Assembly: GCA_048213135.1 (NCBI GenBank) | Contig: PS015298.1 | Span: 71,761 to 117,313 of the forward strand | Direction of reading: 5' to 3' | DNA length: 45,553 nt | Source of the DNA: Reclinomonas americana ATCC 50394 | Taxonomy: Eukaryota | In this document: piece after piece, positions 1,110 through 45,553 of the stretch | How positions within the stretch are numbered: position 1 is the stretch's first letter | Layout of the letters: every line of letters starts with the position of its first letter | Translations under genes and position numbers: made by a program | Notes under the pieces: model-generated | Told to the model about the DNA's origin: nothing | Seen by the model: only the letters and a program-made list of their open reading frames with translations | Database searches by the model: none

Positions 1110-1470
1110 ATAACAGAGCGAGCAAGCGAAAACATGGAGCAAGCAACAAGGCGGAGCAAGCGACAGGGTGGAGCAAGTGACAGGGCGGAGCACGCGACAG
1201 GGTGGAGCAAGCGACAAAGAAGAGCAAGCGCAAAGATGGAGCACGCGACAGGGTGGAGCAGGCGACAGGGTGGAGCAGGCGACAGGGTGGAGCAGGCGAC
1301 AGGGTGGAGCAAGCGACAAGGTGGAGCAAGCGACAAGGTGGAGCAGGCGACAGGGTGGAGCAGGCGACAGGGTGGAGCAGGCGACAAGGTGGAGAAGGCA
1401 ACAGGGCGGAGCACAAGGAGAAACGCCAACATACGGCAACAGAGCGAGCAAGCGACACGGTGGAGCAAGA
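1110..1470. repeat. Minisatellite, ~17-bp unit GGGTGGAGCA(G/A)GCGACA
   Basis: Directly visible tandem copies, cleanest at 1250-1395, degenerate on both flanks; isolated between two N gaps. Confidence 0.9.
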
Positions 1471-2428: not shown

Positions 2429-13995
<11,567 letters not shown>

Positions 13996-21100: not shown

Positions 21101-21542
21101 CCTCATCCCCTCTGATCTTGCTTCCAGCGCTCACTCCCTTCCTGTCTCTCTCTCTCTCTCTCTTATCTCTTCTCTCTCTCTCTCTCTCTCTCTCTGAGTG
21201 TGAGTGTGTGCGTGTTGTTATCTGTCACACCTTGTTTTCCACTCTCTTCTCTATGTTCTCTCTCTTCTCCTCCCTTCTCCCTCTTCACTCCCTTCTCCTC
21301 CCTCCCTCTCTCCCTCCCTCCCTCCCTCCCTCTCTCACCAACTGCGGATGAGCAATCGATATCGAATCACCCGGCTCCAAGTGCGCCTCCTTGCTTCCGG
21401 CACTGGCACTGGTCGCCGCCGACGACACGCGTACTCTGGCAGAGGTGGGACGCGACACTGCTGGAGAGACGGCAGCAGAGCCGGCGCGCAAGAGAGCGCC
21501 AGTTTCGGTGACTTTGAGGAACTGATCTGCGCTGATATCCAT
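18121..21542 (-). CDS. TerD/TerZ-like domain fused to SDS22/LRRC23-like leucine-rich repeats with an LRRcap-like end
   Basis: ATG 21542; L|HFGTSW...DLDASACTF...DAVWFNQL...IQHSGDSRTG...DDETITV...LNSFSGT|PFTFIESA...TGMLLFKLY...WRL (TerD signature), then LQHVDISYNAI, LRTLVARKNIV, IQYVDLSENS, VEHLVLANNRL, LHTLDLSGNRL, and LLTI|DGLAVDDDERREA. Confidence 0.85.
19720..20520. repeat. Degenerate tandem repeat filling the long intron of the TerD-LRR gene
   Basis: About eight recurrences of GAATGAGAAGG(CAAGGA) alternating with AAGAGCAACGAG; near-identical GAAGTTGTGGGATCAAATAGGTACAAGAGCAACGAGGAACAGACAGT at ~19940 and ~20342. Confidence 0.8.
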
Positions 21543-22200
21543 CGCAATAGAGGGAGCTGTCTGTCCTGTGGCGCTTGTCTGCAGCAACTAGAAGCACCTC
21601 TGGGTGTGAGCGATCTTAGCGTGCTTGAATACAAGGAGTTCCCGCAGTAATTATTTTCCGATATCGGTCGACGTCAACTTCGAATTCGATCGACTGGTTT
21701 TTTTGGAACCCTTTCCTCGCGCATGATTGGTCCTGTGGCGCTCGTGCATCGGGTCCGGAAGGTGTCCACAGTCGCTCAGTTCACCAGCCTGCCGCATATG
21801 CATGCCGAAACTCCAGCGTGCGAGGTCGACATTCGTGATATCGATCGAATTCAATCGTTTGCATATGCATGCGCAGTTGATCGGCCATGGCTTTGCCTTC
21901 TGAAAGGGAAGATGACTGCTGGAGAAGAGGAACTATTGTTGGTGTGCCTAGGTCATTGTCGGCGAGGGATTGGTTGACATCCGTCGCATGCGCATTCGCT
22001 GCGCATTGTGGTGAATGAAGTGTTTTAAATTTGTTTCATTCGATTCACTGTTAAATCCCTCAGAAGTAGTGTCGTCGTTGCTGCAACTAGCAAGCTTCTA
22101 CGGACCTGGATCACGGCCGTTCAGAAGCTTCTCGACAACTTGTGAACCGTCCTGGAGGATTGTCCACACCCAATCAATCAATCGTCACAGGAGCGCGGGG

Positions 22201-22541
22201 ATGGCGTCCAGTGGCGTCCCTCCACACTCCTCCTCCTCCTCTTCTTCCTCCTCTGTGGATGGGACTGCCCTTCATCAACAACAGCAACAACAACAACAAC
22301 AGGGATTTGTGAGCATGTTTAGTGACACGCCGACGATTCCCGATGTGCCGACGCCCTTTGCCGCTGTCGGGCCCATGAACCCGTTCCTGCATCCTCATCT
22401 GCATCCTCATCTGCACCATCACATACCGTCGAGTGTACATGTTGGTGAGGAAGAGAGAAGAGTGAGACAAGAGAGAAGAGAGAAGAGCGGAGAGAGGAGC
22501 GAGAGTTCTAAGCATCAAACACACACACGCATGCTCCTCGT

Positions 22542-22585
<44 letters not shown>

Positions 22586-25500
22586 TCCCTCTGTGCGTGC
22601 AGTTCACTCCATGCATTCCATTTGTGGATGCTTGTTGACCTTCTCTCTATCCAGGCACCTTTGATGACCCCATCCCACCTGTCGACTCCTACGACTTGAT
22701 GGACGCGTACCGCTTCACTGCGCCTGCGCCACCCGCGCTGTCACTGCCTCCGCCCAACTTGCCACCTCCACCACCACCACCTCCTGCACCTCCGTACGGT
22801 TACATTCCGCTGCCGGTGAAGCCGCCTCCGCCTCCTCCTCCGCCACCACCACCGCCGCCACCAGCAGCAGCAGCTGTCGCTCCGTCACCTGCTGGCGGCT
22901 TGAAACCGTCGGCGTCCACCTCGTCGCTGACCTCGAGCAGCTCGTCGGGTGATCTGGCCCGTCTGGCAGGTTCCTCTGCGGGTGCGGCTGCTGGTGGCAC
23001 CGGTGGCGCGGCGCGTGAGCAGTTGTCCAATGCTCGTGAGCCGCCGTCACTAGCGGAGCGAGTGTGGCTGGTGGGGGCGTCGGGCGCCAAGGTGCAAGTG
23101 AAGACAGCCGACTCCACCGTGTGGACCTTGGATCGAGCCAATAGTGTTGCGTGGTGCTCTTTTTGTTTTGTGCGTGGCATCGACGACATCACACTCAATG
23201 CGTGTGTGCATCTTTGGCCAGTGGAGTGATGCACAGACCGACTGGTTCTCCTTCCGGTTCGGCTCGGTGCGCCAGTTGGCGGCCGGCGATCGCAGCGGTG
23301 GCGATGGAACCATTCGACCTTCCCTCATCAAGACGCGTCACTACATGCTCCAATTGTTTGTCACCAATCCAGTGCTGTCGCGCGTGCGGGTGTTGGCCCG
23401 AGTGGCCTTGCTGGAGGCCGCCACGGAGAAGTTGGTGCGCGTCCGTGACCCCAAGACCGGCGTCGTTGACGATGGATTGGGACCGTTGCGTCTCCGCCAC
23501 CACCACCACCGCAACCGCTTCCTTTGAGTGTTGTGCTGACTGTGCGCGCGCGTGGTGTTTTGGCGCTGCAGAGCCTCGTCGGCCGACGTCAACATGGTCA
23601 GCCAGGGCGATTCACTCTTTGGCCAAACGGAAATACGATTCGCCTTCCACAGCAATGTGTACGACTCGATGCGTGTCGCGGATGTGGATGGTGGAGCCAG
23701 TTCGTCATCTTCTGCCGCGACCACTGCCACCGCTGCATCTGCGAACGATTCCGATAGCGACTCTGCAAAGTTGGCCACTCGAAAGTCACCCAAATTGAGC
23801 AAGTCGCCAAAGGCGACTGTCAGCAAGACGCCTTCGTTGCGTCCACGCACACACATATATATATGTGCCATTCTCGTGTCAAGTGCCGCTTACACCACAG
23901 TGCCGCAGAATGACGCCGCGCTTCAAACTGCGCGTCACGTACCATCTTCTGGGAATGGACGACGAAGTGCAGGAGGTCCCGTTTGCGACTGTCTTGTCGC
24001 CAATCTTTGAAATCTTGGCGCGAGCTGGCAAGGGTGGTGAGGCACACCGCGAGGCTCTTGTTCCCAGCATGCTTGTATGCAAACTCCTTGCTTTCCCCCA
24101 CTTTCTCTCTGTTTCCCATTGCAGATCGTGTGTATGCTGGCTACGCGCGCGATGAGGCACAGTACGAGGAGCAGTCGGTTGTGGTGGAACGTGACACCGC
24201 CATGGATTCACCTCGGTTTGTGGAGATGCCGGCGACACAGTCGGCTCCATCGACTCGTGCCCCCACTCCATCGCTCCCTTCAGCGGTCTCCTCGCCAGAG
24301 GCTCCCAGACCGCCTGCCATCATGGTACCGCCTGCCGCCTCGTCCTCTTCCTCTGCGCCACCCGCCAGCGCCGCGTATACAGCCGTTCCTCACGACAGTC
24401 AGCGACGAGCCGCAGACTTGTCAATTGAGAGTTTCGTGCAAGTGTATGTGTGCCCGCCCATTGTCTACTCGTTTGCTCATCGCCCGCGACTTGCAGTACC
24501 GAGGTCCATGTTGGCACCCAAGATTCCGGCACCGTCGCCGACGCTACACCTGGAACTCGACGAATTGCTGCGCCTCTTCTGGCTCAATCCCACGTTTATC
24601 GAACAAACACACCGGCGCAATGTCCTGGTGGGTTTTGTCGATCGCGTGACGCAGCTGCAGGGTTTGTCACCATCTCTACGTCGACACAGTCCGTCTCTCC
24701 CTTTCCCTTATCGTCTTGCCCACAGACGACGATCAGCAGTACCTGTTGGCCCTGTTGCGTGCACGACTGCCTAACCTGTTTGCGAGTGTGGCTTCGTACG
24801 GTTCGGCGCCTGGATTTGGTAGTTCGATTGGTGGTGTTGGTGTTGGTGGCAGCAGCAGCAGCAGTAGTGGTGGTGTCGGTGGTGGTGGTGGTGGTGGTGG
24901 TGGCGGTGGCGGCGGAGGAGGGGGGAGGGGGAGGGGGAGGAGGAGGGAGGGGGTGGTATCGGAGGTGCAGGTGGCAGCGGTGGAGTGAGCGGTCTGCATC
25001 TCATGTCGTCGCAACGAGGCGCCTCGTCGGGCGGTGCAGACGATTTCTCCCGACTGCTGATTGAGACGCCACCACCACCACCGCCGTCGTCGCAGACAGT
25101 GCCACCTCCACCTCCGCTAGCTCCACCGCTCCCGTCTTCTCTGTCGTATGATGCACCAATGCGGCAGCAACTCCTGCAGCCGTCTCTCCAACTGACGACG
25201 ACACCGGTTCGCAATCCTCCGCTGACGCAGCGGCCGACAGATGCGCTGAACCCGCCGCGCGGTCAGGCGCCTCCATCGTTCTCCGGAACAACGTCGTCGT
25301 CATCGGCGGCCCATCCAGCGGGCGCGCCATACGACGATGATCGGAGTGCTGGTGAACAGTCCATGCTGAATGGCATGGAACGGTTTGTGTTGCTCCCGAC
25401 TCGCGCTCTCTTTCCCCGTATTTTGTCGCTGACATGGGTGGTGTCGGGGCAGGAAACGATCGTATTCTTCCGCGGTGTCGTCGTACTTGGTAAATGTGGG

Positions 25501-25883
25501 TGACGACCTGGGCGACAGTATTGATGATGATGGTGCGTGAAGATCCTCACGAACCGTGACAGCTTTTTGTCACCGCTTACCAATGGTGCTGCTTCGCAAC
25601 AGACTGGATGCCGCCAACAAAGCGCGCGAACACTGCCGTTGGCATGAGTGGAGCGGGTGGCAGTGACCACCGATCACAGTGGCGAGATAACGAGGGCGTG
25701 TTTGACAATATTGCGGGCGCTGGTACCGGTCTGCACTTCCGATCGCAGCAACCGCCGCCAGCCGGCCAATCTTCTCCCCCGGCGCCGCCATTGCCTCCTC
25801 CTCCTACAGGCCCGTTTAGCTCGCCACCTTCTCGGCACTCCAATTCACCGGGAGGCACACGACCGGAGAATAAGGGTGGTTGA
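22201..25883 (+). CDS. Putative transcription factor, paralog A (beta-sandwich domain, possibly CudA/STAT/p53-like; Q/H/P/G-rich regions)
   Basis: ATG 22201; poly-Q, His- and Pro-rich N-terminus; FSFRFGSVR...LIKTRHYMLQL...RVRVLARVALLEAAT...EIRFAFHSNVY...PRFKLRVTYH...VLSPIFEILAR; second block LLRLFWLNPTF...RRNVLVGFVDR. Clear similarity to paralog B; family assignment is inference. One apparent frameshift in the G-run near 24920-24955. Confidence 0.6.
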
Positions 25884-25942
25884 TATGGAGGACGGTGTGC
25901 GACAGACAATACAGTTCTTGTTTATGTGTGCAGAGTGGGGTT

Positions 25943-28900
25943 TTAAAGGTACTCCTCCTCGTCGTCCTGCCGTGCCATGATGGCATCCAGCTCTCTGCGC
26001 ACGACTCCACGCCAGGCCGCGTTCATGCGTGCCTTCGCCTCGTCCCAGCTGGAATCCAGCAGTGCAAGGTCCGTCACTCCCATCTCGTCGCTCAGCAGCC
26101 ACTCGACCAAGGTCTCGGCGATCTCGGGCTTCAAGTTCCTGTGCTTTGTGCACCAGACTGCGCGATACAGAGGCGCAACAGTGAATATGTGTGTGCCAAG
26201 ACAGACAAAAACAAACGAAAGCAGACAAACCATGGAATGCGTCGCGAACGGGTGTTGACGGCTGCAGCTGCAACTCCATTGGCACTGAGGCCTCGCTGGC
26301 CGAGTCGGGATCTCGGACGCGGCTAGGGCCTCGTACGCTGGCGGTTGGTACAGCCGGCACAGGTGCCGATGGCGCCGGCGCCGTCCGAGCAGCAGACGAC
26401 GCAAACATGAAGTTACCGGAGCCGAAGGGTGCGGAGGCGGCGGTGCTTGCGCTTCCAGCCGAACCGGCCGGGAGCCAGGAGCTGCCCGACGCGCGCACTG
26501 GAGTGGTCGGCGAGTGGGACGTCACCGAGGCCACATCGCTCTGCGGTGGCGTCACGGTGCCGTTGGCGCTCGAGTGCGACGGCGTGGATGCAGGTGATGC
26601 AAAGTTAAAGCTCGGGCGTGCCCAGGCACCAGCCATTCCGGCGGCACCCGCGCCACCAAATGGACTGGCAATCACTGGTGCCGGCACCGGCGGCTGCGCA
26701 AATACCGGTGCCGACGGCTGTTGCGCAAACATGGGAGCAGACGGCGGCGCCTGCTCCGACTGGCGACGACCACCGCGAGCGCTGAGGGGTGCAGCGGCCA
26801 TGTTCACTCGCGCACTCGGCAGTGACGCCTCCGAATCGGCGTCAGCGTCAAATTCGGCACCGCGGCGACTGACTGCCGAAGACGGTCGCTCACCCTCCGC
26901 CCCCTGATGGCGGCTGACTGCCGACGATGGTCGCTGTCGACGGGCACGCTTGCGAAGCTGGCCCTTCACCAAGGCCTCAGCAGCGGACAGTGCGTGCATC
27001 AGCGGCTCCAGAACGAGCACTTCCGCTCCCTGATCGCGGTACGAGTTCGGCCCAGTGTACGACACGGTGGGGTAGATGCTGGCGCGGGTGATGCCACTCT
27101 CCTTGGCGAACCTTTCCAGCGTCTTGTCCACCAAGTCACTCTCGAGAGCGCGGATGGCGTTCTTGTTTCGCAAGCGCGGGTCGACCAAGTCCATGCCGGC
27201 CAGAACCACCATCGGCTGCAGGCCCTGTTCGCCGAGAAGCTGGCCCAACTCGCGCAACGCCCACATCTTGTCCTCCTGGCCCAGCATGTTCACGTGGCAG
27301 CACAGAATGACGCCATGCACACGGTGAGCAACGCCGCCCTTCCACAACGTCGCTTTGTCCAGATCGTCGTCGAAGCGGAACCCGTCCGGCAGGGTGCCTC
27401 CCACCAGGGCGCTCGTCACGTCGTTCGAGTAGTTGGTGTTTGTCGGCCTTTCTGGTTCGCGGTACACGCCTTCGGCGTTGCCGGGTTTGCGGATTGCGTC
27501 CGAGTGGTAGCCCTGGTGTGTGTGCACACAGCAGTCAGGGGCATGCACCTCGAGCAGTGGGTCGCGCACGACAGCTCTCAACACTCACCCAGCAGTCAAT
27601 CAGGTTCAGATGGTCCGCCACGGCGTAGGTGACCTTTTTCTGCGTCACACCATCATCCGACGGGCAGCTCGGCGCGACCGAGAAGAAGCGGTTGTTCAGT
27701 GCGCTGGCCATGGTGTTGATGGTGGCACTCTTTGCGCCATTCTATCACACCAACACACATGGAAAAAATCAGCAACGACGAGCGTCGTGTGGTGGGTGGT
27801 CGCAGGCGTGCAACGCAACTCGGAGACCGACAAACAGAATGTTGTAGGCACCCACTTCAGCGGGGCAGTTGTGCTGGTACTCGTTGATGGTCGCCAGAAT
27901 AGTGTCACGCTCCGCCTCCAGGCTTTGTTGAGAGATGCGAGGTGCTGCGGTATACACAGGTGAGCGACGAAGATGCACATGATCAACGGTGGATGAGAAA
28001 CGCACCAGGGAGTGTGTAAAAATCGGTCTCGTCCGAGTACGAAGTCCGTGTGTTATCTGCACGAATGCCTTGCACGCGCAGCGTCACCAGTTCATTGGCC
28101 GGCAGCCCGCTCACCCAGTACTCGTTGATGCTCACGTCGGCTTCGCCCACAATCTTCCAATGCACTGTGGCAGAAGCCGTTCGACGTGAGTGCGACTGAA
28201 CGCTAAGTGGGTGTGCTGCGACACAATACCTCGCATTTTGCTGTCGGGCCCACGGTTTCGCACTTTGCGCTCAATGTGGATCCTGTCGAGGTTGAAGTCC
28301 AGCAGCGACCCGCTCGGCATCGAGAACTTGAGCATCAGCTCAGTCGATGTGCGGTTTCCAGTGGTCACCGAGGGGCTGTGAACAGTGGACGATGAGCAAC
28401 GAGCTCGACGACGACAACGAGGGCTCAAACAAACACACCATGCATTGCTGGTGACAGACGCCGGGCCAAACAACTTCTCGACCTGCTCACGCGAGTCGAC
28501 GAAGAATGTGTTGCGCTGCGAGGTGCCAAGCAGCTTGATGTCCTCACGCGCAGCGTCGTCGCGAGGGGCGTGCAGAGCGAACACCACAGTCGGGATCTTG
28601 GCGTCGTGCAGCGAGCAGTTGGCCTCCATCTTGGCAATCTGCGGGAATGGCAGTGCGCCTGCACGTGAAGTACTTGTTGTCAGATCGAGGAAAGCAACGA
28701 CGACAAAGCAGCTGCGCGCAAGGCAAGTGGACACCAACCTACAGTCACCAACACCACGAGGCTCTTCGGGTTTTGTCGCGCGCACGTGCCCAGGTGTTGC
28801 GCAGCGATCTTGATAGCGCTGGCCACACCGGCATTCTTGGTGGCCGCCACAGCCTCGTCGCCCTCCACATCCAGAGGCGGCTCGTTATAGTCCTCAGCGC

Positions 28901-29267
28901 GCGCCGCAAAGTCAAACAGTGGCTGGCGATCGTTGGTGAGCACTTGGAAGTTCACCGCCGGCGTGTGCTGGCCATACAGCACCACCGAGAAGTTGACAGA
29001 GCGCGGATCAGTAGGATCCAGACGCGAATGGCTCAACAGCATGCGCACGATGCTCTTGACGGTCAGCACCTCCCATGCCATCGGCAAGCACTGTACGTAG
29101 CGAGGAGCACACACAAGGAAATCGTCAGAGGCCAGCGAGAATGCAATCACAGAGGAGAGAGTGTTTGATGGGAAGCAGAACGCAACAAGGACGATGTTGG
29201 TGCTCTCGCTGAGTGGCGGGAGCACAATGCTCTGCAGGCGTTGATGTTCATCGCCGGCAATATCCAT
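25943..29267 (-). CDS. VWA - FN3 - IFI44-like P-loop GTPase (degenerate motifs) - low-complexity linker - small helical C-terminal domain; paralog A
   Basis: ATG 29267; VWA-like (FSVVLYG, VASAIKIA, KSLVVLVT); FN3-like (WKIVG...YWVSGLPANELVTLRVQGI...TSYSD...FYT); YNILFVGLR|NGAKSATINT, IDCW|G, LVGGTLPDGFRF, RVHGVIL, IYPTVSY, EVLVLEPLMHALSAAE; stop 25945-25943. Confidence 0.75.
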
Positions 29268-29919
29268 GGCAGTCAAAGTGGTTCTCTCTCCGCGGCAGAA
29301 GTGGAAATGTGTGGAAACAACCTGTCATCGACAACAGTGCCATGTCGGATCGCAAACATATCCGGCTGACGACTGCCGGCACCTGTTGTCCGCTGCGCGT
29401 CTCCCGGACACGTTGGCAGCCGCGGAGCTGGAGGGTGCCGCAGGCGAGGAAGATGAAGAGTGCGTACTTGCAACAAGCGCTAGCGATCATCGATTCTATA
29501 CGTGTTTTTGAAACAAAACCCGCTTGCAGCTCACGCGCACAGGCGCGCACGCACTGAGAGGAGGAGGGAAAGGGCAAGGAAGGGGATAGATGGTAGCGGG
29601 GCGCAGTCGCAGGGTTGACTTCTGCCGGGTCGCAACGATATCGTCAGCCGGGAATGCAATTGTTCGCGTCCTGTCGAAAAGATGGAAATGCACACGCGCA
29701 CTGCGCGTACTGCCCGGCAAACTGAGGACACGTGCTCTTCCCCCTCCCATCACTGCGTTGCCCATTGACGCAAGTGAGCACACCTTGCGACTCTTGGTGT
29801 ATTTGCATGTCCAGTCGTATTCGGATCAATTGCGAACCCGGCGTGTCCCGTCGCGCGGCACATTTCCTGTCACACAACTCGCTTTTTCTCTGTGTCTGCT
29901 GAGCACTTGCAACGCGAAC
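29268..29919. promoter_or_regulatory. Probable bidirectional promoter between the divergent GTPase paralogs
   Basis: 652 bp between divergent ATGs (29267 minus, 29920 plus); positional inference only, no motif assigned. Confidence 0.5.
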
Positions 29920-32900
29920 ATGGCTGCTCTCGAACCCGTTGTACCCGACTTCGTCGCCGCAGACGACCTTCGTGCACCGCCACCAGCGCCCCGGCTGTTG
30001 CCGGCGCCTCCTCTGGTCCTCGAGCTCACCGAGGCGGACCAGCTGCGACTGGCGGAGAAGTTCACTGGACCGGCATCGCAGACGGCTGATGTGGTGGTCG
30101 TTGCGTGCGATGTACAGAGAGAAGAAGGGATGAGGGATGGGGGGAGGGGAGAGCGTGAACGTTTACTTCGCTTGTCTTCTTGTCGGCTGTCCTACTTTGC
30201 TGTGTGTTCGTGGAGGAGCAAGATCGGTGAAGTAAGGAGTTGGAGTCAGGAGTCGTCTCTCTCTCTCTCTCTCTCTCTCTCCATCATGCTTCTCTTATTC
30301 TTCTTCTCCGCGCGTGTGTGTGTGTTTGTTGTTGTCAGATTGTCCTTCTGCTCCCTCAACACTGCGTGGAGTGCAGACACGCACCTCGTGATCCTTCTTC
30401 TCTCTCTCTGTAGGTGTGCGTGTTTGTGTGTGTTGTCAGAGTGACTTTGTCTGTTTTTGACCGCGTTGCCACTTGTACGCCTTTCATCTTATTGCTTGTG
30501 TGCACGTCGTCAGAGTGACATCTCCCCCGTCTCTTCCCCTNNNNNNNNNNNNNNNNNNNNGTCACTCTATCGCGCCTTTCTTCTCATCCATGTTGTCAGA
30601 GCTTGTCGTGTTGTCTGCTGCTTGCTCACTACTTCATCCCCACTCTTCCAGGCCTTTCCGAACGGCGCCAACACCAACCTCAAGCTGACCCAGCACTTGT
30701 ACCGCGTCCTCGCTACATGCCTCAACCTCGATGAATCGAATCGCGCCGGCACTGCGCTTGCCGTCGTGTACTACGGCAGCGAGTTCCCGGATGGCGCTCG
30801 GGTGGAGACTGAGCTGACTTCGAACTCACGGTATCACCTGGAGCGTGCTGCCGGTTGCGTCTTGATCAGCGAAGGACTTGTTCATCATCTTCGGTGTGTC
30901 TCACCTTGTGCGATTCACAGTCATGGAGAAGAACCCGGCTGCCACCTCCACGCACATTCACAAGGCCATTGACGTCAGCCACAATCACATGTTGGGCCAG
31001 GAGCCTGGTCGCCGCAAATTTGTTGTGCTGGTGGTCAATGGTACGCTGTTCGACGCACTTCCTCCTTTCTACGCTGCGTGGTGATTGTGCTGCTTACATC
31101 GCATCGCTCTGCCGTGAGCAGGTGACATCCAGGACGCATCGGCTGCTGAGCGCCACGCTTCCAACCTTCACACTGCCAGAGTGACGACTGTCGCTTTTGT
31201 CCTCGGTGCTGATGCATGCCGCAGTGCTGCAGTGGAGGAGGCACTGCGTCCAGTGATCTCCGCCGACTGCTTGTTCCGCGCAGAGCGACTCGAGGAGATC
31301 GAGTTCCTCTTTGGCAAGACCTCCACCGTCGTTCGCCCGGTGCCACAGATCGAGGCACACAATCGCACCTCGTCCAAGCTGGAGCTGCGCTTCAAGATGA
31401 GCTCCGATCAGAGCGCGGCTGGAGCCGTGAAGTCTTTTGAGCTGGAGCGCCGCATTCGCGGAAGTCCCATGGAGGTGTCATCGGCATCAGCTGCTGCTGG
31501 TGAGTGTTTCCTAGAGAGTTGGATACTCTCTTGCGTTTGCGAGATACTGACCGGAATTTCCTCTTCAGATGACGCTTCTGGTTCTCAGGCCCGTGTGGGA
31601 GAACGTTGCGTCTGTACGGTAGTGGTTCTTTGCCTCTTGTCTTTTGCTCACTGCATGACTACTTGAACAGCCAAGTGGGTGGAGTTTGGAAGTGTGGCAG
31701 CCAACATCAACGAGATGCACATTGAGCACCTGGCACCTGACGAGCTGCTGGTGCTGCGGGCATGCGCCGTCTTTGAGGACGGCACACAGTCGCCTTGGTC
31801 GCCAGTGACAGAGTACCGCACGCTGTCCAGTTGCGTTCGCTAGAGAGGTTTTGCTTCATTGATGTTCGCAGTTGTGAACTCATGCATAACTAATATGCAG
31901 GGCCTCGCCTGCGCGCTGAGGACTTGCCTGACTACCGGCAGGCCTTGGTGGCGCGCGTTGAGAACTTTGCCCGCGACCGCCATGCCATTGTGCCGTACAA
32001 TGTGCTCCTTTTCGGAAACATGGGAGCGGGCAAGTCATCCACCGTCATCACCACGATGAGTGCCATGAAGGGCAAGTTCGTGGCGGCCGCGACGGCACGC
32101 AAGCAAAACGGCACTGTCACGTTCACCAACTCTGACTATTCGGTGGTCGACGACTGTGTGTATCTGCATGATGTGTGGGTGCGTGCATTCGCTTGTGCTG
32201 TCTCGGTGATTGACAACCACTGCTATTGTATTCACACTTAGCTTGTGGTTGCAGGGCTACGACGCCAGGATGTACACCAAGGAAGTGACAGAAGACCTTA
32301 TCAATGGTACTCTCCCAGACGGGTTCGACTGCCGCCACAAGGGCAAACCTGCAGCGGCTGCAAGTGGCAGTCATGTGCGCGGCAGCGGTCGTCTTGCGCA
32401 CGCCAATTCGGAGCCGGAGGACGATGTGCTCGAGAGCTGCTTGGCAACGCACATGCACTCAGCCATGGTCGTCTTTGAGGCTGACTCGTTGGACAATGGC
32501 CTTAAGCGCGCGGACCTGAAGGAGATGCTGGCGCTGCTCACTCGCCACGGTTAGCACGTTGTTTCTTTCATGATTTTTCATCCGTTTCTCGCTCACCTTC
32601 TGTTATACACAGACTTGCAGTTTGTCGTTCTGCTGAGCAAGCTCGACATCATTGACCCGCGCCTGGCAGGCCACAACGCCATTCTGGCTCTGGACAGTGA
32701 CATTGTCGCCAAGGCCATGGAGGACTTTGCCGAGCGCGTCGGCATCCCTCTCGGCTGCGTGTACCCAGTTGTCAACTTCAGTGGCCCCAACGCGTATCCC
32801 GATCTCGGCAGCGAGGTGCTTGTACTCGAGGCGCTGCTCGGTGCACTGGAGTTGGCGGACGGCTACTGCGTCACTCAGCGCCGGGCCGCTGCGGCCCAGC

Positions 32901-33618
32901 TGGTTCACGGCCACGTTGGAGATGCCGACATGCAGTTTGCATTGAACACCGTGCGCAGCAGAGGCGTTGATGTGCCCGCCGCGTTGGTGCAGGCTGCACA
33001 GCAGACAGACGACTTGCGAGCGCTGGTGAATCACCTGGTGCGCGAGTGCGGCTACGACGCGGCCATGAAGGATGTGTTCGATGTGCCCAAGGCGGACGAG
33101 CAGGAGAGGGCGGTGGTGGCTGCGCCCATGCCAGCAGCGTCTGCTCCGTACCAGCCCAACGTTGCTGCCGGTGGTGGGTGGAACGCCAGGCCTTTTGCCG
33201 CACCGGTACCGGCACCGTCGTATGTGCCGCCGTATGCCGGCGGCTACTCGGCTCCAGTCAAGCCTGGCAACACGACTCCATTGTCGGTGCCGAATTTGGA
33301 TGACGTCGACGGTTTCGCGCCTGAGAGCGATGTCGGCGGCTGGTTGGGCAGTTGCGTTTTGCGATAGCATCACCATGTCACTCCCATGCAACAGATTGCT
33401 CACTTTTGTCTTGTCCACCAGCTCTTTGCGACCGGAACAGGCACTGGAACCGGGATAGTGTCGACGAACTGGTGGAGTGGCTGCTTGAGAGGGACATCTC
33501 CTCGCTGCAGGCACTGTACCGGCAATGGTCGACGGTAATGAGCAACGGCCCTACCGTGGATCGTTCCGTGTGCCAGAGCATTTACGGAGAGCTGGACGCC
33601 ATCATCACCATGTCGTGA
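29920..33618 (+). CDS. VWA - FN3 - IFI44-like P-loop GTPase (intact motifs) - linker - small helical C-terminal domain; paralog B
   Basis: ATG 29920; VWA-like (LAVVYYG, THIHKAID, KFVVLVVNG, VTTVAFVLG); FN3-like (KWVEFG...IEHLAPDELLVLRACAV...SPWS...YRT); G1 GNMGAGKSS (32014-32040), G3 DVW|G, LINGTLPDGF, MHSAMVVFEA, G4 LLSKLD, GIPLGCVYPVVNF, EVLVLEALLGALELAD - motif order as in IFI44/IFI44L. Confidence 0.8.
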
Positions 33619-34391
33619 AACGAACACCCACTAGTATCTGTAAAATGAAGAAGATGTGCTTGCTGCAGATGCGCAAGGGGAGGGGAGGGGAGGGAAGGAG
33701 AGAGGGGAGAGTGAGAAAAAGGCCGAAAACAACAACAGCTTGAAGACTGGCGACAACAACAACAACTTTACTAATCCAAACAGCAGCAGCTGCATGATGA
33801 TCACCATCTTGTTTGTAGTAGTCGCATGCAAGACAACAACAACAACAATTCANNNNNNNNNNNNNNNNNNNNNNNNNNNNNNNNNNNNNNNNNNNNNNNN
33901 NNNNCCGTGTACGTTCGCAGAAAACGCTACTATGCGTCTTATGCAAGTGCGTCAAATCCACTGGTCAACCACGCTTATGCGGTGAAGATCGCAGTTCTCG
34001 ACTTGTTCGGAGCTCCGAGAGCGAACACACACACACAAGGAACCTGCTGCTGCCTCAAGACTGGTGTTCGTGTTGATGTTTTGGATACGGTTGAATTGCT
34101 TGTTTGTTGGTGAATGAATTGCAGTGTTTGTATGCGATGAGGTTTTGATTGGGCTTGATCCCCAAGTTGCTAGTTTTGCAACTGAGCGTATGAATTGCAA
34201 AAGCTTTGCGTTGTCTTGGTGAAGTGGACAAACTTTGTCCCGTCCACAAACACACTCGCAGCAGCATAGTAAGCCGCGCACACACGCACGCAGAGCTCCA
34301 CCTCCCTCTCTGCCTCTTCCATCCTCCGCGCGCACACACGCATTTTCATCGTCACCAAAGTGCCGCGTGACTCGTGACCCCGACACACACG

Positions 34392-37300
34392 ATGCAGTCA
34401 GATCTGTCTTCCGTGGCAGTGCCTCCCTACGAGGACTACCAGCCTCCACCTCCTCCTCCACCACCACCACCACCACCACCTCCACAACAACAATCATCAT
34501 CATCATCGTCCGACTCCTCCTCCTCCTCACAATCCACCATCATCGTCGCCTCCTCGGCCGACACTGGCGGTGACGCCACGACAACCACCATTGTCGCCAG
34601 TGGAATTGTCGCGGCGGGTGCAGGCGGGCCTCCTCCACCTCCACCTCCGCCTCCGCCTCCGCCTCCACCGCCTCCGCCACCGCCGCTGATCACTGGTGAC
34701 TCGGCGTCCATGGCCTCCGCAGCAACGCCTTACCCGTTCAATGATATGTCGGTGCGTACGTGAAAGTGTGTGAGAGTGTTTGCGTCACTTTTTTTGGCGC
34801 GTGAATTTTTTGTGCGGTGGCTCTGTTGTGCGCGCGTGTGTGTGTGTTGCGTGTGTGCGCGCGTTTTGTTTGTTTTTTTCGCGTCGTGCGCGCGCGTGTG
34901 TGTGTGTGTGTCTTTGTGTGTGTTGCGCGCGTTGCAAATTTCGACGATGAATTTTGTGGTTGAATGCACGTGCTCTGCACTTTGGTGTCATGTGCATGTG
35001 TGTGTGCGCGCGTGTGTGTATGCGTGTGTGTGTTGTGTCTGTGTGTAATTTGATTGTGTGATTTCGCTCCATTTCCATGTGGAAGCATTTGTGGCTCATT
35101 GTGTGCGCGTCTGTGTGTGTGTGCAGTTCATGCCATCGCAAGGAGGTGCGTTTTACATAAGCCGGCTTACACTTCCACAAAAGAGCCTCATATTCTTGAT
35201 GCAGGGTACCCGTTCATGTCGCCGGGTGCTTTCCCTGGTGGCGATGGTGCGTGCGGACTTGTCTTCTATCTGCTCCTTTTTGTGGTGTTGACTGGCGTGT
35301 GGCGCAGTGATGGTGCCGCCACCGGAGAGCGCGGATACGGGAGACAGCGGTTCGTCGGGCGATGATCGCCTGTGGGTTGTGCGGACACGAGTTGCGGCGT
35401 TGGTCGTGCGCCGTCTCTTGGCTCTTGGCTCGTATTCATGCCCCTTTTTTTTTTGCGAGCAGCAAGAGGGAGTGCTGCCGTCGCACTTCCGCTTCGAGTT
35501 TGGCTCTGTGCGCGACTCGCGACGCGGCGGCATCGACGAGCATCTGTACAAGCCGCGGCATTATGTGCTGAAGGTTGTGAGATTCATTTTCCCTTTTGTC
35601 TGTTGGTCCATGGCGCTGATGTGTGCGAGGCAGTTGGAGCTGTTGCCGCCGCTCACCATGTACCGGTTGCGTGCGCGTGTGCTGCTGCTGGAGGCGGAGA
35701 CCGGTCTGCCGGTGGCCATGTACGGTGGCAAGAATAACACGGGACCGACCACCAATGGTCTGGATTACAAGTCCAAGTTGCGCGTGGGGGAAAGGGGAGG
35801 GATGAGAGGGAGAGAGGGGAGGAGGAGGGGGAGGCGATGGGCTCTCTCTTGCTGTGTGTGTCTTTGAGAGAGAGAGAGAGAGAGAGAGAGAGTGCGAGGA
35901 GAGTGGGAAACGGGAAAGATGGCGCAGATGTGTTTGTGTGCGTCTGTGAGTTAGAGTGAGAGTGAGAGGGGATGATAAAACGGGAGCGAGGGAGCAGATG
36001 TGTGTGTATGTGTTCTTGTGTTCTGCCGAGAGAGTGGGAGAGTTGAGAGGAGATGAGAAAACGGAAATGCGGAGCACATTTGTGTGTTTTGTATCGCTGA
36101 GGGTGAATACAGGAACAAAGAGCAATTTGCGTGTGTATGTTTTTGTGTGCCTGCGCTCGTGTGGATACGCGCCGCTGTGATTGTTTCACATTGGACGCTT
36201 GTGTGAGAGGAGAAAGGGAAGGAGAGGCACGATGTTTTTGTGATTTTGTTTCACTGATATTTGTGTGTGCGCGTTTGTGTGAGCGAGAATGGGATTTTGG
36301 TTTCACAGACCATGAGCTGCCTCCTTTGTCTGTCTCTCCAACATCCCTTCTCATCTTCGCCGCCGCGCCACGCAGTCCCGAATTTGTCGAAATGGAAGCA
36401 AGGCCACCACACATGCCCAACATGCTGTCGGCCGAGGTGCGAATCCGTTTCGTCCTGCACAGCAATAATTATCACAAGCTGCGGGCGCGTAAGACCCCGC
36501 AACTGCGCAATCTGCCACCAGCGTAAGTCGTCTTCATCCGTCCCGTTTCTTCTTTTCTTGTGTTATTCGTGTGTCCTAATTTTATATGTTGTCTGCAGCA
36601 ATGCTCCGCGGTTCCGCCTGCGCGTGTGCTTCCATGTGGCGCTCCCCGACGGCTCCATGAATGAGCAGCCGTTGGTGACGTGCGACTCGCCCGACTTTGA
36701 CATTTCTGCGCGTGTCGACAGTTGCGTTTGTTGGTACTTGTTCATGATTTAGAGTGTTCCTCGTCATCTTACTTGCGCATTTGCAGCCAATGAACATCCC
36801 GTGTACGTCACGAAGAGCGAGAAGAAGAAGGAGGGCGGTCCGCCGACGCCGAAAGAGGTGAGTCGTGTCGTCGCTCGTTCTTTGCCGCTCTCTGTCGTTG
36901 TTGCATGCACATCTCTGTCTGGTCTCTATCCATAGCCGCCATTATCTTGTTGATGAAGAGCGACGTGAAGTCATTCGCTCTCTTTGCCCTCTCCTCTCAC
37001 TCTCATTGCTTCACGCAGCTTTCCTCTCCTCCTATTATGAGCGACATGAAGTCCTTCGCTCTCGTTTCTAGATCCCAGTCTCCTCTCCTCTCTCGTTTCT
37101 TTTCTCCTTTTCTCCTTTGATGACCGACGTGAAGTCATTCATTCTCACTTTCTTTCCCCTTATCTCCCTCCAACGTTCCCTCTCGCCTCTCTTCCTTTTC
37201 TCTCTCACACTTTCTCTTTCCCCCTCTCTCATTCCCCTTCCCCCTTCCTCCTTCTCCTCCCCCTACCCTCTCATTTTTCTCACTTCCATTCCCCCTTTTC

Positions 37301-38294
37301 CCCCTTTCTCCCCTTTTCTCCCCCCCCTGCTCCCTTTCCACCACGCAGAGCTCCGGCAGCTCCTCCCGCCCCTGCCAGGTGCTGGTCACGCACGACGAAC
37401 CCATGCCCATCGTCCTCGACGACGTGGTGTCACTGCCGCCACCGCCGCCGCCACCGCAGCCGCGGTTCTTCCCGGGTTCCGGCGCGCTGCCGCACAGCCA
37501 CAGTGCTCCGATGATGCCTGGCGTCGAGGGCCTCGGCTCGCCGTCGTCGTCGTCGGCGTCGGATATGATCGTCTCGAGCCTGCTGGCGTCGGGCGGTCCC
37601 CCCGACCCCGAGATGATCCAGCTGTTGAGCTTCTGGCGCAACCCGTTGCTCTTTACGAGCGAGCAGCGTCTGGCGGTGGTGCGCAGTTTCATTTCGCGCT
37701 TTGCCATGTGTCCTGGTGAGTCGTGTGGTGTTGTGGTGCCACGATCAGGCAGCATCTCGTGCTAAACTTCACTGCGCGCAGCGTCGGAACATCCCGCGGT
37801 AGCCAATACCGTGACGGCCATGTTGCTGCAAATGGGCCCGGAGTCCATTTGTGCGTCGTCCTCCCTTCTCATTCCTTTGTGTTCGCGGTGCTGTGTCTGA
37901 TTATTCTCTTTGTTTGTGTGTTGAGCAGCCGCAGGCTTCCAGTCTTCGCCCTCTGTTCATCGATCCCCGTACGAGACGGATCAGAGGTTCTCCGCCCTTC
38001 GTTGTTTTTTCCCCAAGAAACGTCGCTCTGTGCCGTTGCTGACTCTCTGTTGTTTCCGCTGCAGGAAACGTGCTCGTGATACGTCGGCCGCATCCGACGA
38101 TGAGGATGTCGACTCGGGTCGTTGCGTCGCTCTCGTAATCTGCCGTCCACTGTGTGTTTGTTTGCCACGACTTACCTCTCTTGCCACCAATAATAGTCCA
38201 TCCACCTCGCAAGCGAAATCGCAATCGCAGCAGCGACGATGGCGACGACGATGATGACGACGATGACGATGATGATGACGACGATGACCAATAG
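34392..38294 (+). CDS. Putative transcription factor, paralog B, with basic NLS-like motifs and acidic tail
   Basis: ATG 34392; poly-P; FRFEFGSVR...LYKPRHYVLK|LEL...RLRARVLLLEAET...RIRFVLHSNNY...PRFRLRVCFH...DSPDFDISAR; LLSFWRNPLLF...RLAVVRSFISR; RKRARD, PPRKRNR, poly-D, TAG 38292-38294. Confidence 0.65.
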
Positions 38295-38546
38295 TTCCCC
38301 CTTGTCTTGTTGCTTTCTTTCTCATTCTTCAATCCTCTCTATGTTTCTGCTTGCTTGCTCTCTCTCTTTTTATCGCTCATTCTGTCGCTCGCCATTCTCT
38401 AACACAAGTGAAAAGACGTTCGTATTGGTGGTTGTGTCTATACATTTTGTGTTGCCGCGCAAGAAAAGAAAGGCAGTCGGCTGTGGAGTTGATTGGTGCA
38501 CTCACACGCGCCGGCGACGATGATGATTGAGACAGGAGGAGACCCA

Positions 38547-41181: not shown

Positions 41182-41223
<42 letters not shown>

Positions 41224-41316
41224 CAACACACACCTGCTGTCAATGGTGGCATCAGTCGCGCTCATTTCGTCACTGGTGCGCTTGCGCGCTCGTGCGCGTG
41301 TCACTCGTGGTGGCAT
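38547..41316 (-). CDS. Borealin/Nbl1-like chromosomal passenger complex subunit with a very long disordered N-terminus
   Basis: ATG 41316; MIEELDIEVESRCQQIRARGKALEFQLKNEFSVQLAK|MPLAIRKMPVSTLLHEYGG fits the Nbl1/Borealin N-terminal helix pattern; TP-rich segment; C-terminal helix EALDQLAALRAQMD. Confidence 0.7.
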
Positions 41317-41444
41317 GGCGTGTCTTTTGTCTCTTTCTGTTCTGCTTCTTCTTGGGAGAGTGTTGTGTTTTCTCCAGTCGAGTTGAATTTGGATTGCAAC
41401 GGTCATTCATGCAGGACAAGATTGATGTAAGACGTTTTGAGGAA

Positions 41445-41854: not shown

Positions 41855-44800
41855 TTAGCAAGTATTCCACGTCGCTGCGCGCCGGAAGCAGTCAGAAACG
41901 TGATAGAAACTCGCAACTGCTCCCCCCACAAAAACGCAAACGAAGAACCTCAAGCGTTTGCCAAGAGCTGGCGGCAGCGGAGGCAGTGGTGAACCGGCGG
42001 CTGTTGCCACAAAGCGTCGCAACAGCTGAACAGCCTCCGACGCAATATCGTGCAGTGCATTGGTTCGCGCGGCGTTCCACTTGGCGTCGGGGGAGCCGGG
42101 TTCGAGAATGACGGAGCGGAACTGCAGGCGGTCCATCACGTCGACGGCGTTTTCGGCCACGACAAGAGTGGAGGTGTGGGACTGCAACAAGGAAAAGAGT
42201 GGAGAGAGGGTGGGGAAGGGGAAGGGTGAGGGAGAAAGGTGTGTGCGTGTTTGTACGTGCGAGGATGCAGCACCTTGGTTTCCTCGGGACCGAGGGTCAG
42301 TGCCTGCGACCAGAAGGGAGAACAGTGAGATGGGACTCACGGGAACAGGCACCGTTGCACGCACCGATGAGCACTGATCTAGGGCGTTTTCAAAGGCGGC
42401 CGAGTTGGTGTAGCAGCTCGCCAGGTGGTTGTGCAGCTGAATCAAGGCCGGTATCCGTTGCTCGACGATAGCAGCGTCGGTTGAGTCGGCGAGGTGGCGC
42501 AGGTGGGCAAGGGACTGGGTGAAGAAGGGGAAAGGGCAAGGGGTAAGGGCAGAGGAAGCAGCGAGAAAAAGAATGGAGAGGGAAAGAGATGAAAAGGGAG
42601 GGGAAACGAGGGGACAAGAGAGAGAGAGAAGCAGTATGGAGGAAAAGGATGAAAAGGCAGCAAAGGAAGAGAGAAGGACATGAGGAAGAAAGAGCAAGTT
42701 GAGAGAAAGAAGGGAGAATGGAGATAAGAGTGTGAAGAAGTCAGTAGGGGGGAAGGGAGGGCAAGGAAGAGACGAAGAATGAGAGAAAATGTAATAATAG
42801 CCAGGGAGACAAGGGCAACGGAGAAGCAGAGAGAGAGGAGAAAGGGGCACACGAGGTAAAAAGAGCGCATTCTCACCTTGTTGAACAAATCCAATGCCTC
42901 AAGAACTTGTTTCCTTCGCAGATGGTCGGCGCCACGACTGCCCGCAGAAAATGTCAGTCTGAAAGAAGCACAACACATGCCCGAGACGAAGAAGAGTGCA
43001 CCTTTGAAGCTCCTTGGCGCGTGACAAAATGTCGGCGTCACTCTGCGCATCACCAACGTGTCATCATTAAGCAACCACCTCAGCGAGACCCTCCACGACA
43101 ACCAACCTGCGTCACATCCACTGAGGCCTCGGCGGGCGGAATCTGACTCCTCATCCGTTCCACCAGCTCGCGAGCCTCCAGCCGCTGTCCGCGCTTGTAG
43201 AGGTTGGCGGCCAGGTTTTCGACGGCCGCCAGTGTGTCGGGGTGCGTGGGACCCAGCAGGCGTTCCCGACCGAGAAGTGACTCGCGGAACAACGCATCGG
43301 CCTCGTCACACTTGCCAATGTATGACAGACACGTGGCGAGGTGCGACATGGAGGCGAGGCTGTCGAGGTGCAGCGGACCGAGCACCTGTCTCCGCATCTC
43401 GCAACACCGGCGAAGCAAGTCGGCGGCCTGGTGCAACCGTTCCTGGCGGAACAGGCAGATGCCGAGGGTGCTGAGAGTGGCCAGCGTGTCGCTGTGCGCC
43501 TCGCCAAGCGCCTTCTGCTGCATGGCCAGACATTCGAGAGCCATCTTCTCCTGCTCCTTGCGCCGCCCCTGCTTGCCGAGGCACACACTGAGGTTGAAGA
43601 GTGAGCGCAGGGTGTCGGGATGCTTCTCGCCGAGAGAGCGAGTCTGCAGATCGAGACACTCGCGCGTCAGGCGCTCTTGCAGCTCACGATCGCCCAGTTC
43701 GCCAACACAAGGCTGTATACATAAAAACATCGAATGAGTGACCACAGCCGTAAAAAGTCAACCACCCTGCGCAGGAGGAAGAATTGCTTTCTCCCCACCA
43801 AGGTCTCTGCCTCCTTCCATCATCAGTAGAAAGACATAAAAGAGAGAGAGAGAGAAAATGACAGAGAAAGAGAAAGAGAGAGCGAGAGGCTGACAACAAC
43901 ACTCATTTCTTTCTACACTTGCACGCGGCACGCAACTCCCAAATTAGTCATCGTGGTCAGCGTGCCGGGATGGTAGTTGCCGAGCACCTCTCTCCTCGCC
44001 TGCAGACATCGCCGTAATAGGCGCTCCTCACGCACCAACAAGCCGGCCTGGCCCCAACAGTACGCCTCCTGGTGCAGCGCAAGCAGCGAGTCCTCTGTCT
44101 CGCGACGCGTCGATGCACTCTCCTCATCGTCGACACCCCACAGTTCCATGTGGTGCACTTGATGCCAGGCACGCGCCGCGTGCTCCCAGTCCCTCCGTAA
44201 CTGCTGCACGCGAGCCACACACTTCAGGCGCCACACACGCTCTGCGCCCTCCGCCTCGCCCGCCTTGCCGTCGCGATGATCGATGCGCGCCAGCACTCGA
44301 TTGCAGCCGTTCACCAAGTCAAAGGCACACGTGGCCACCGTGCCCGTGTCCACCAACGTCGCCAGCTCGAGGAGACCCTTCAGCGTCAACAACGGCGTGT
44401 ACTGGCCCGCTTGTGCTGACCACAGTCCGTCGTCCTCACACAGCGCCTGCCACAGCAGGCCCATGGGCGTCAGTAGACTCTGCGCGGCCTCCAGTTGGCG
44501 ATTCCGGTCGCGACCACCCAGCGAGCCGACCAGCGCGCACATGAGACGCATGAGTGAGCGACGAGTGAGGGCGTACGGCTTGCCCTTGCGCCAGGCCCGC
44601 AGCCACTCCACAGCCAGCGGGTGCGCGCGGTAGTGCAAGGAGGACTTGCCGGGGCGCGGTGGCAACAGCAGCACGTGCTCAATCACATTGCCGCCACTCT
44701 GCGCATCGGCGCGCAACATGCCTGTGGCCACCAGCGACTCGAGAGCAACTTGGAAGGGTCCGTCGATGCGATGCCAGGTGCCGCTGTCCAATTCCAGCGT

Positions 44801-44996
44801 CGTTGGCGTCGCCGCAATGTCACTGCCGACATCAACTGAAGATGCCGACGATGTGTCGACTTGCAGGCCACTGCTGTGGCCGCCGCCGCTGCTGGCCGCC
44901 GAGATTGTGCTCATGGCCGGTGATGAGGGTGTCATTTCGACGTCGGCCGGCAGGTGGTACGCCACGACGGCTTGCTTGCGGCGGAGCATTTCGGAG
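41855..44996 (-). CDS. TPR-repeat protein (kinesin-light-chain/TPR_12-type repeats) preceded by a winged-helix-like segment; 5' part lies outside the window
   Basis: Repeats RREVLGNYHPGTLTTMTNLG, LGEKHPDTLRSLFNL, LGEAHSDTLATLSTL, LGPLHLDSLASMSHL, LGPTHPDTLAAVENL; acceptor at 44999-44997 preceded by a CT-rich intron running to the window end. 3' exon structure and stop are uncertain. Confidence 0.8.
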
Positions 44997-45364
44997 CTGC
45001 GGCGGGTAGGGGAAGGGGGAAAAAGGGGAAGGGGGTGACGGGGAAGGGGGTGAGGGGGTGAGGGAAGGGGGAAGGGAGGAAGGGGGGAGGGTGGAGGGAC
45101 GAGAAGTGAGGGAAGGGGGATGAGAAGACGAAGGGGAAGGGAATGGCAAGGGATAGCCAAGGGAAAGGGGTGAAAGGGGCAGGGAATGAGGAAGGAGAAG
45201 AGAAACGGAATGGAAGTGAGAGAAGGAAAGGGAGGCGAGGTGGAACGAGAAAGAAATAGGGGCGAGTAGGGAGATGAGATAAGGGCAAAAGAGAAGTGAC
45301 TGCAAAGTTGCGGAAGAAGCAGAGTCGACAGAAAATGCGAAACCACTGGACGTGAATGGCACAG

Positions 45365-45401
<37 letters not shown>

Positions 45402-45553
45402 GAGAGAGAGAGAGAGAGAGAAGAAAGAAGAGAGAGAGAGAGAAGAAGTAGGTAAGGAAGAGAGAGAGAGAGAGAGAAGAAGAAGAAGAACGAACGAAGA
45501 ATAGAGACGAAGAAGAGAGAATAATAGTAGAACGAACGAAAGGAAGGAAGGAA

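What the first reader, a model, noticed from the sequence alone, without database searches (positions are those of the whole stretch)
22201..38294. Four-gene cluster: TF - GTPase <> GTPase - TF, a candidate protist innate-immunity module
Seen: two paralogous putative transcription factors bracket two divergently transcribed paralogous IFI44-like GTPases; both pairs are strongly diverged yet share intron positions, so the arrangement is not a recent or artefactual duplication (TFs are co-oriented, GTPases inverted). Knowledge: IFI44/IFI44L are interferon-stimulated antiviral-response genes in animals. Inference: a regulator-plus-effector locus, with a possible NLR-like TPR gene ~4 kb away.
Basis: partly seen in the sequence, partly recalled or inferred. 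Interest (0 to 1): 0.7.

Follow-up and report, generated by a model that had tools for sequence, protein, structure and literature searches.

The report
Head-to-head active/altered IFI44-like GTPase pair
An unidentified single-celled-type eukaryote carries two anciently duplicated, back-to-back relatives of the animal antiviral protein IFI44, one with normal and one with altered GTP-binding motifs, that differ unusually between chromosome copies and likely act as a defence pair, while the two orphan genes flanking them are not shown to be transcription factors or to control the pair.

Summary
The four genes are real and arranged as described: TF1(+), GA(-), GB(+), TF2(+). The other chromosome copy (C338) has the same order. 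GA and GB are old paralogs: vWA-like, FN3-like, an IFI44-like G domain (profile hit to an oyster IFI44-like protein, E 1e-10) and a helical tail, with 5 exactly shared introns. GB has canonical G1/G3/G4 motifs; GA has altered G1 and G4, identical in all three copies found. Between chromosome copies the GTPases differ about 2.7x (synonymous) and 8x (non-synonymous) more than neighbouring control exons, though dN/dS stays below 0.2; the flanking genes evolve like the controls. The 'TF' label is untested: no search found a relative. The four-gene module is not supported: a third GA-GB copy has a different spacer, no third TF copy was found, and a tandem IFI44-like locus has no TF relative nearby. 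No related genome or RNA was available. Best reading: the GTPase pair is the unit, likely defensive, with GA as a possible modulator; the bracket likely reflects local duplication history. The scan noted IFI44-like genes, including another head-to-head pair, elsewhere in this genome. New variant of a known kind.

The parts
22201..25883 (+). TF1: orphan gene, 9 exons, 977 aa on the C338 copy; Pro/Ser/Gly-rich arms, ~200-aa core domain, small C-terminal domain, basic motifs in the tail; putative transcription factor (untested)
23237..24036 (+). TF1 core domain exons 3-5, homologous to TF2 exons 5-8
24906..24951 (+). G-run where the window copy of TF1 is 2 nt out of frame; the C338 copy reads through (assembly error or allele-specific frameshift)
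25943..29267 (-). GA: vWA-like + FN3-like + IFI44-like G domain + low-complexity linker + helical C-terminal domain, 9 exons, 910 aa; stop codon 59 bp from the TF1 stop
27730..27831 (-). GA G1 motif, non-canonical (GLRNGAKS), split by a GA-specific intron at 27742-27819; identical in all three copies
27189..27200 (-). GA G4 motif without the Lys (AGMD); identical in all three copies
29268..29919 (.). 652-bp spacer between the divergent GA and GB start codons; candidate bidirectional promoter; 94% identical in C338, no detectable homology to the third copy's spacer
29920..33618 (+). GB: same architecture as GA, 10 exons, 860 aa, canonical G1/G3/G4
32014..32037 (+). GB canonical G1 (GNMGAGKS); G4 (SKLD) at 32636-32647
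34392..38294 (+). TF2: orphan paralog of TF1, 14 exons, 581 aa; poly-Pro arms, core domain, basic NLS-like motif and acidic tail; putative transcription factor (untested)
42360..45553 (-). Context only: TPR gene whose upstream part (on C338) carries a P-loop exon, NLR-like; a borealin-like gene lies between it and TF2

Best explanation
The unit is the head-to-head pair GA<>GB, two old paralogs with an IFI44-like G domain that likely share the 652-bp spacer as a bidirectional promoter and likely act in defence, with motif-intact GB predicted to be the working GTPase and motif-altered GA predicted to modulate it, while the flanking orphan genes likely bracket the pair through local duplication history rather than as its dedicated regulators. 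Shown: geometry, paralogy, IFI44 kinship, motif states, purifying selection on both genes, excess divergence between chromosome copies, and a separate third copy of the pair. Inferred: co-expression, GTPase activity of GB, a modulating role for GA (by analogy with IRG GMS/GKS proteins), and the defence role.
For: IFI44 kinship: the profile of G-domain exons hit 2 of 7,992 scored candidates, both TLDc-bearing; one is named oyster 'interferon-induced protein 44-like' (E 1.2e-10), the other is unnamed. Pairwise, GB vs the oyster protein gives E 7e-9 and GA 2e-5 over ~250-290 aa. GA's altered G1 and G4 are unchanged in 3 of 3 copies and GA is under purifying selection (dN/dS 0.18), so it is not a decaying pseudogene. 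The pair was duplicated on its own: C5798 holds GA and GB head-to-head at 81-85% DNA identity with internal exons in frame, while TF1, TF2 and the borealin-like gene each gave two places only. Between chromosome copies GA and GB show dS 0.155 and 0.148, dN 0.027 and 0.024; TF1 and TF2 show dS 0.086 and 0.046, dN 0.006 and 0.003; eight control exons from four neighbours pool to 54/967 synonymous and 9/2,810 non-synonymous differences (Fisher p 7e-11 and 1e-14 against the GTPases). Human IFI44 and IFI44L are also adjacent, and only IFI44L has a complete G4 (10.1101/2020.02.24.963900, passages).
Against: No expression data, so co-expression and inducibility are untested. dN/dS stays far below 1, so positive selection is not shown; the excess divergence could come from exchange with the third copy (runs test for conversion tracts not significant, p 0.52 and 0.09) or from relaxed constraint. 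Repeat-rich bins elsewhere in the window also reach 0.07-0.12 substitutions per site. The third copy is a partial witness: its GA is cut before the last exon by a dispersed repeat, and the contig ends inside GB's last exon. Its spacer is not homologous, which also weakens the idea of a conserved shared promoter. In human IFI44 the G1 region was dispensable for RSV restriction, so G-motif state may not define active versus regulatory roles. Paralog distances overlap (TF core 1.07 [0.84-1.41], G domain 1.25 [1.03-1.56]), so one block duplication is not excluded.
Confidence: 0.5

Rival explanations
1. A true four-gene regulon: an ancestral TF + GTPase block underwent inverted duplication, one TF later flipped, and TF1/TF2 drive GA and GB through the spacer.
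For: Both families have their closest relatives in this genome within 16 kb of each other. Paralog distances are compatible with one event. TF1 and GA stops are 59 bp apart. TF2's core has 0 amino-acid changes in 207 codons between copies, and both proteins carry basic motifs and Pro/Ser-rich arms.
Against: It needs two events, no fewer than nesting does. The third GA-GB copy has another spacer and no third TF copy was found. The tandem IFI44-like locus has no TF relative in 40 kb. No 8-mer is shared by the three upstream regions. The TFs evolve more slowly (dN/dS 0.07 vs 0.16-0.18), so similar paralog distances weakly suggest an older TF duplication.
Confidence: 0.17
2. The GTPase pair has a non-immune job (membrane, cytoskeletal or stress function scaffolded by vWA and FN3-like domains), and its excess divergence comes from exchange between paralogous copies.
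For: No TLDc domain, so it is not a full IFI44 ortholog. The nearest Atlas clusters for the N-terminus are intracellular vWA-clan proteins such as Ku_N, Ssl1 and Rpn10 (best score 0.90, a lead only). dN/dS is below 0.2. In some 300-bp bins the two chromosome copies are as far from each other as from the third copy. Most neighbours are housekeeping genes.
Against: The only named relative belongs to an interferon-stimulated family. IFI44-like genes also form a tandem array in this genome. The Nd/Sd ratio, not only dS, is raised over controls (p 9e-4). Conversion tracts were not significant.
Confidence: 0.23
3. TF1 and TF2 are not transcription factors but cytoplasmic adaptors or other proteins with poly-proline arms, so no regulatory link is possible.
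For: No hit to any DNA-binding family exon by exon, 0 hits among 1.84 billion representatives, none in PDB sequences; the core is only mildly basic (33 K+R vs 27 D+E; 27 vs 22).
Against: A basic NLS-like motif in TF2 and basic clusters at a shared intron in both tails; an acidic tail and low-complexity arms. The core's motifs resemble p53/Ndt80/CudA-type sandwiches (recalled, from no call).
Confidence: 0.1

Closest known systems
IFI44 / IFI44L family (human adjacent pair; oyster XP_011415537.1)
   Same: Homologous G domain over ~250-290 aa at 21-24% identity; adjacent paralog pair in which one member has an incomplete G4.
   Different: vWA-like and FN3-like domains replace TLDc; long low-complexity linker and helical C-terminal domain; paralogs are divergently oriented and ~30% identical (human pair 45%); GA also has an altered G1.
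IRG system, GMS regulators versus GKS effectors (PMC2532785)
   Same: Works-like analogy: a paralog with a non-canonical G1 beside a canonical one; GMS proteins are proposed to restrain GKS proteins like GDIs (passages).
   Different: No IRG kinship found; GA keeps the G1 Lys and changes the preceding Gly, whereas GMS proteins change the Lys; interaction untested here.
Plant head-to-head paired NLRs (e.g. CHS3-CSA1, PMC11298796)
   Same: Tightly linked head-to-head paralogs with allelic diversity (search listing and abstract start only).
   Different: GA/GB are GTPases, with no NB-ARC, LRR, TIR or CC domain found; no sensor domain unique to one partner.
p53-like (Ig-fold) transcription factors: Ndt80/MYRF, STAT, CudA, Rel
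   Same: Recalled resemblance only: ~190-aa core with strand-like motifs, low-complexity arms, basic tail motifs.
   Different: No sequence or structure match was obtained in any call.

Membership tests
IFI44/IFI44L | G domain homologous to IFI44 | tested here: met
   Profile hit E 1.2e-10; pairwise E 7e-9 for GB and 2e-5 for GA
IFI44/IFI44L | N-terminal TLDc domain | tested here: not met
   No alignment of GA or GB to the TLDc part of P0001/P0002; the N-terminus gives vWA-clan leads
IFI44/IFI44L | Canonical G1 GxxxxGKS | tested here: inconclusive
   Met in GB, not met in GA, in 3 of 3 copies each
IFI44/IFI44L | G3 DxxG | tested here: met
   Both genes, across a shared phase-0 intron
IFI44/IFI44L | G4 motif (complete in IFI44L, incomplete in IFI44) | tested here: inconclusive
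   Complete in GB, Lys missing in GA; the family itself varies
IFI44/IFI44L | Induction by infection; antiviral activity | not testable with these tools
   No RNA holder was listed
IRG GMS/GKS system | Kinship to IRG GTPases | tested here: inconclusive
   No IRG family among exon-wise Pfam hits; exon fragments are insensitive
IRG GMS/GKS system | G1 Lys replaced by Met in the regulator | tested here: not met
   GA keeps the Lys and changes the Gly before it
IRG GMS/GKS system | Nucleotide-dependent binding between members | not testable with these tools
   The G domains are split over several exons and could not be folded whole
Paired NLRs | Head-to-head linkage | tested here: met
   652-bp spacer; same orientation in 3 of 3 copies
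Paired NLRs | NB-ARC/NACHT plus repeat domain | tested here: not met
   The nucleotide-binding domain is an IFI44-like G domain
p53-like Ig-fold transcription factors | Beta-sandwich DNA-binding fold | tested here: inconclusive
   Single-exon model had mean pLDDT 47.9 and was not searched; the spliced core could not be folded
p53-like Ig-fold transcription factors | Sequence match to a DNA-binding family | tested here: inconclusive
   None; all queries were 40-104-aa fragments
p53-like Ig-fold transcription factors | Sequence-specific DNA binding, nuclear location | not testable with these tools
   Only basic motifs were seen

The most novel reading that the evidence does not exclude
A protist counterpart of an interferon regulon in one 16-kb locus: two transcription factors of an undescribed family switch on a paired IFI44-like GTPase and its pseudo-GTPase partner through a shared bidirectional promoter, with the effector pair under balancing selection. 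It would put inducible IFI44-type defence, and a GMS/GKS-like brake, far outside animals.
Probability: 0.12. Interest if true: 0.8.

Novelty: new variant of a known kind. Interest (0 to 1): 0.42.

Why it matters
The biochemical role of the IFI44 G domain is unresolved: its G1 was dispensable for RSV restriction in the one study read here. A non-animal pair with one canonical and one motif-altered G domain, both conserved, is a natural comparison for what the domain does and whether family members regulate each other. The vWA-FN3-G architecture shows the domain working without TLDc. The two orphan genes are a domain family with no relative among 1.84 billion representatives for the half tested, worth a fold in their own right. 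No paper on non-animal IFI44-like genes turned up in the listings of five searches of an open-access library.

Tried and rejected
RNA: no RNA holder was listed; no evidence either way. TF identity: Pfam by exon (8 TF stretches among 23), Atlas (best 0.79, bacterial), HMMER over representatives with the N-half profile (0 hits), PDB sequences with three profiles (best E 0.84), word search (0 of 177), own-genome searches for NDT80_PhoG and STAT_bind (0, but the controls did not ring either), and a fragment model too poor to search. Relatives elsewhere: GA half-domain word search (0 of 2,484); GTPase patterns in metagenomes (0 of 122) and viral contigs (0 of 206). The one metagenome hit for the TF (1 of 101) is a 22-residue chance match in an unrelated prokaryote-like contig and was rejected. 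C-terminal helical domain: model pLDDT 72 with four helices; best Z 4.2 with no row standing out, death-fold chains tied at 4.0, Foldseek nothing under E 4; SAM or death fold not established. Complex prediction for the two C-terminal domains: no verdict. FN3 label: no Pfam hit; it rests on recalled motifs. Assembly artefact: rejected. GA as pseudogene: rejected. A different splice restoring a canonical G1 in GA: the other donor listed shifts the frame. C5798 as a third haplotype of the whole region: not favoured, as neighbours have two copies. Shared cis-element: no common 8-mer; the spacer is not an inverted repeat. PDB sequence search with the G domain gave only unrelated designed-repeat and weak hits.

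Full report
What is there. The window is an intron-rich, GC-rich eukaryotic sequence. Reading frames and splice candidates gave four gene models: TF1 (+, 22201-25883), GA (-, 29267..25943), GB (+, 29920-33618) and TF2 (+, 34392-38294). GA, GB and TF2 translate without internal stops to 910, 860 and 581 aa. TF1 is 2 nt out of frame in a G-run in the window but reads through as 977 aa on contig C338. C338 is collinear with the whole window at about 92% DNA identity; I take it to be the second haplotype, which is an inference. All GA and GB internal splice sites and frames are kept in C338 and, where covered, in a third copy. No RNA confirms any model.

Paralogy and introns. GA and GB align at 27.5% over 579 aa, and each of their four folded parts scores above all 1,000 shuffles. 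Five introns match exactly (0 of 200,000 random placements); a sixth sits two codons before the same Trp by eye, though the aligner offsets it by three columns. TF1 and TF2 share a core (41% over 165 columns) and a C-terminal domain. Two introns match exactly (138 of 200,000), and seven of eight TF1 introns have a same-phase partner in order when paired by hand.

The GTPases. A profile of G-domain exons from this genome matched 2 of 7,992 scored candidates: an oyster 'interferon-induced protein 44-like' (E 1.2e-10) and an unnamed TLDc-bearing protein (E 4e-5). The alignment places G1-G4 and the C-terminal helices in register. GB is canonical (GNMGAGKS, DVWG, SKLD). GA has GLRNGAKS, DCWG and AGMD, so G1 and G4 are altered, identically in three copies. 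There is no TLDc. The N-terminus gives vWA-clan leads (10 of the ten best Atlas family hits in one clan, best 0.90; a lead, not proof). The next domain looks FN3-like from recalled motifs only. The last exon folds as a small four-helix domain with no clear match.

The flanking genes. No tool identified them. All queries were single-exon or intron-containing fragments of 40-104 aa, so sensitivity was low and the fold of the whole core is open. They have Pro/Ser-rich arms, basic tail motifs and, in TF2, an acidic end, which fits a transcription factor but does not show one. In this genome each finds only itself and the other, on the two chromosome copies; a motif pattern gave 4 matches and 0 in the control. 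These searches give lower bounds.

Is it one module? The GA search gave 11 places among 12 candidates: this locus, C338, a third head-to-head copy on the 7-kb contig C5798, and a tandem array of shorter IFI44-like genes on C6, C8 and C9. The third copy is 81-85% identical, has its own start regions and a ~250-bp spacer with no similarity above shuffles, and its GA is cut by a dispersed repeat before the last exon. So the pair was copied without TF1; the TF2 side lies beyond the contig end, but no third TF2 was found. The tandem locus has no TF relative in the 40 kb examined. No relative was found in metagenomes or viral contigs, so synteny across species is untested. The order TF-> <-G G-> TF-> needs two events under either history: inverted block duplication plus a TF flip, or a tandem TF pair with an inverted GTPase pair nested inside. 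Paralog distances do not separate them.

Evolution between the two copies. GA and GB differ at dS 0.155 and 0.148 and dN 0.027 and 0.024. TF1 and TF2 differ at dS 0.086 and 0.046 and dN 0.006 and 0.003. Eight control exons that I chose from four neighbours (helicase, RhoGAP, TPR, borealin-like) pool to 54/967 and 9/2,810. The GTPases thus carry about 2.7 times the synonymous and 8 times the non-synonymous difference of controls, and a higher Nd/Sd than the TFs (p 0.0015). dN/dS is below 0.2, so this is deep divergence under constraint, not shown positive selection. Balancing selection, exchange with the third copy and relaxed constraint all remain; conversion tracts were not significant, and repeat-rich bins elsewhere also reach 0.07-0.12. 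The signal covers the GTPases and not the flanking genes.

How it most likely works. Shown: a conserved head-to-head pair, one canonical and one altered G domain, diversifying and separately duplicated. Inferred: shared promoter, GB as GTPase, GA as modulator, defence role. The analogy is the IRG system, where GMS proteins with an atypical G1 are proposed to restrain GKS proteins (PMC2532785, passages), and head-to-head NLR pairs (listing and abstract starts only). Human IFI44 and IFI44L are adjacent and differ in G4, but IFI44's G1 was dispensable against RSV (10.1101/2020.02.24.963900, passages), which cautions against reading roles from motifs. IFI44's TLDc is noted in PMC5614904 (one passage). 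No supplements were read.

Neighbourhood. The TPR gene continues on C338 into a P-loop exon with sub-threshold NACHT, NPHP3_N and NB-ARC hits, so 'NLR-like' is plausible. A borealin-like gene separates it from TF2 and its tested exon evolves like the other controls; nothing ties it to the cluster.

Novelty. The G domain belongs with a known family; the architecture and the canonical/altered head-to-head pairing were not found in the literature searches (listings only, open-access library). Earlier AI notes on this genome report other IFI44-like genes, one with a vWA domain and one head-to-head TLDc pair, and another orphan TF-like trio judged to be ordinary local duplication; I did not test them. 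Verdict: real genes, a credible defence-like GTPase pair, an unsupported four-gene module. Interest 0.42.

Noticed in passing
window 22445-38196, modelled introns: The commonest 5' splice site is GTTGCG (14 of 38 introns), ahead of GTGCGT (7); GTAAGT occurs once. An unusual donor consensus worth checking against this organism's U1/U6 snRNAs.
   Followed up: partly
L019:6871-8730, L020:1-860, L021:375-4510, L022:8950-9910 (C6, C8, C9): Tandem array of shorter genes: poly-Pro, a possible FN3-like domain and an IFI44-like G domain with canonical G1, 87-97% identical to each other and 26-28% to GA/GB.
   Followed up: partly
L018 (C5798) 1-7006: Third GA<>GB copy with open frames, new start regions, a short unrelated spacer, and GA truncated by a dispersed repeat found at many other places.
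   Followed up: yes
window 25883-25943: TF1 and GA stop codons are 59 bp apart and convergent, so their 3' UTRs probably overlap; the gap is unchanged in C338.
   Followed up: partly
window 24443-24503: A possible 60-nt in-frame intron in TF1 exon 6 was left in the model; it lines up with a gap in TF2 and only RNA can settle it.
   Followed up: no
window 18270-21900 (-): Gene or genes with a TerD domain (E 9e-10) and leucine-rich repeats (E 1e-9), directly upstream of TF1 and divergent from it.
   Followed up: partly
window 42360-45553 (-) and L017/L058: P-loop NTPase plus TPR_10/TPR_12 gene, NLR-like; the P-loop exon lies beyond the window's contig end, on C338.
   Followed up: partly
window 38500-41320 (-): Borealin-like gene (Nbl1_Borealin_N, E 4e-6) between TF2 and the TPR gene; two copies in the assembly.
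   Followed up: partly
C338 ~124360-126300 (L016): The C338 copy has about 2 kb of extra sequence between GB and TF2 relative to the window, which has an N gap there.
   Followed up: no
L020:4300-9830: Long multi-exon gene with repeated ~110-aa Ser/Thr/Gly-rich units, probably a surface protein, downstream of the tandem GTPase array.
   Followed up: no
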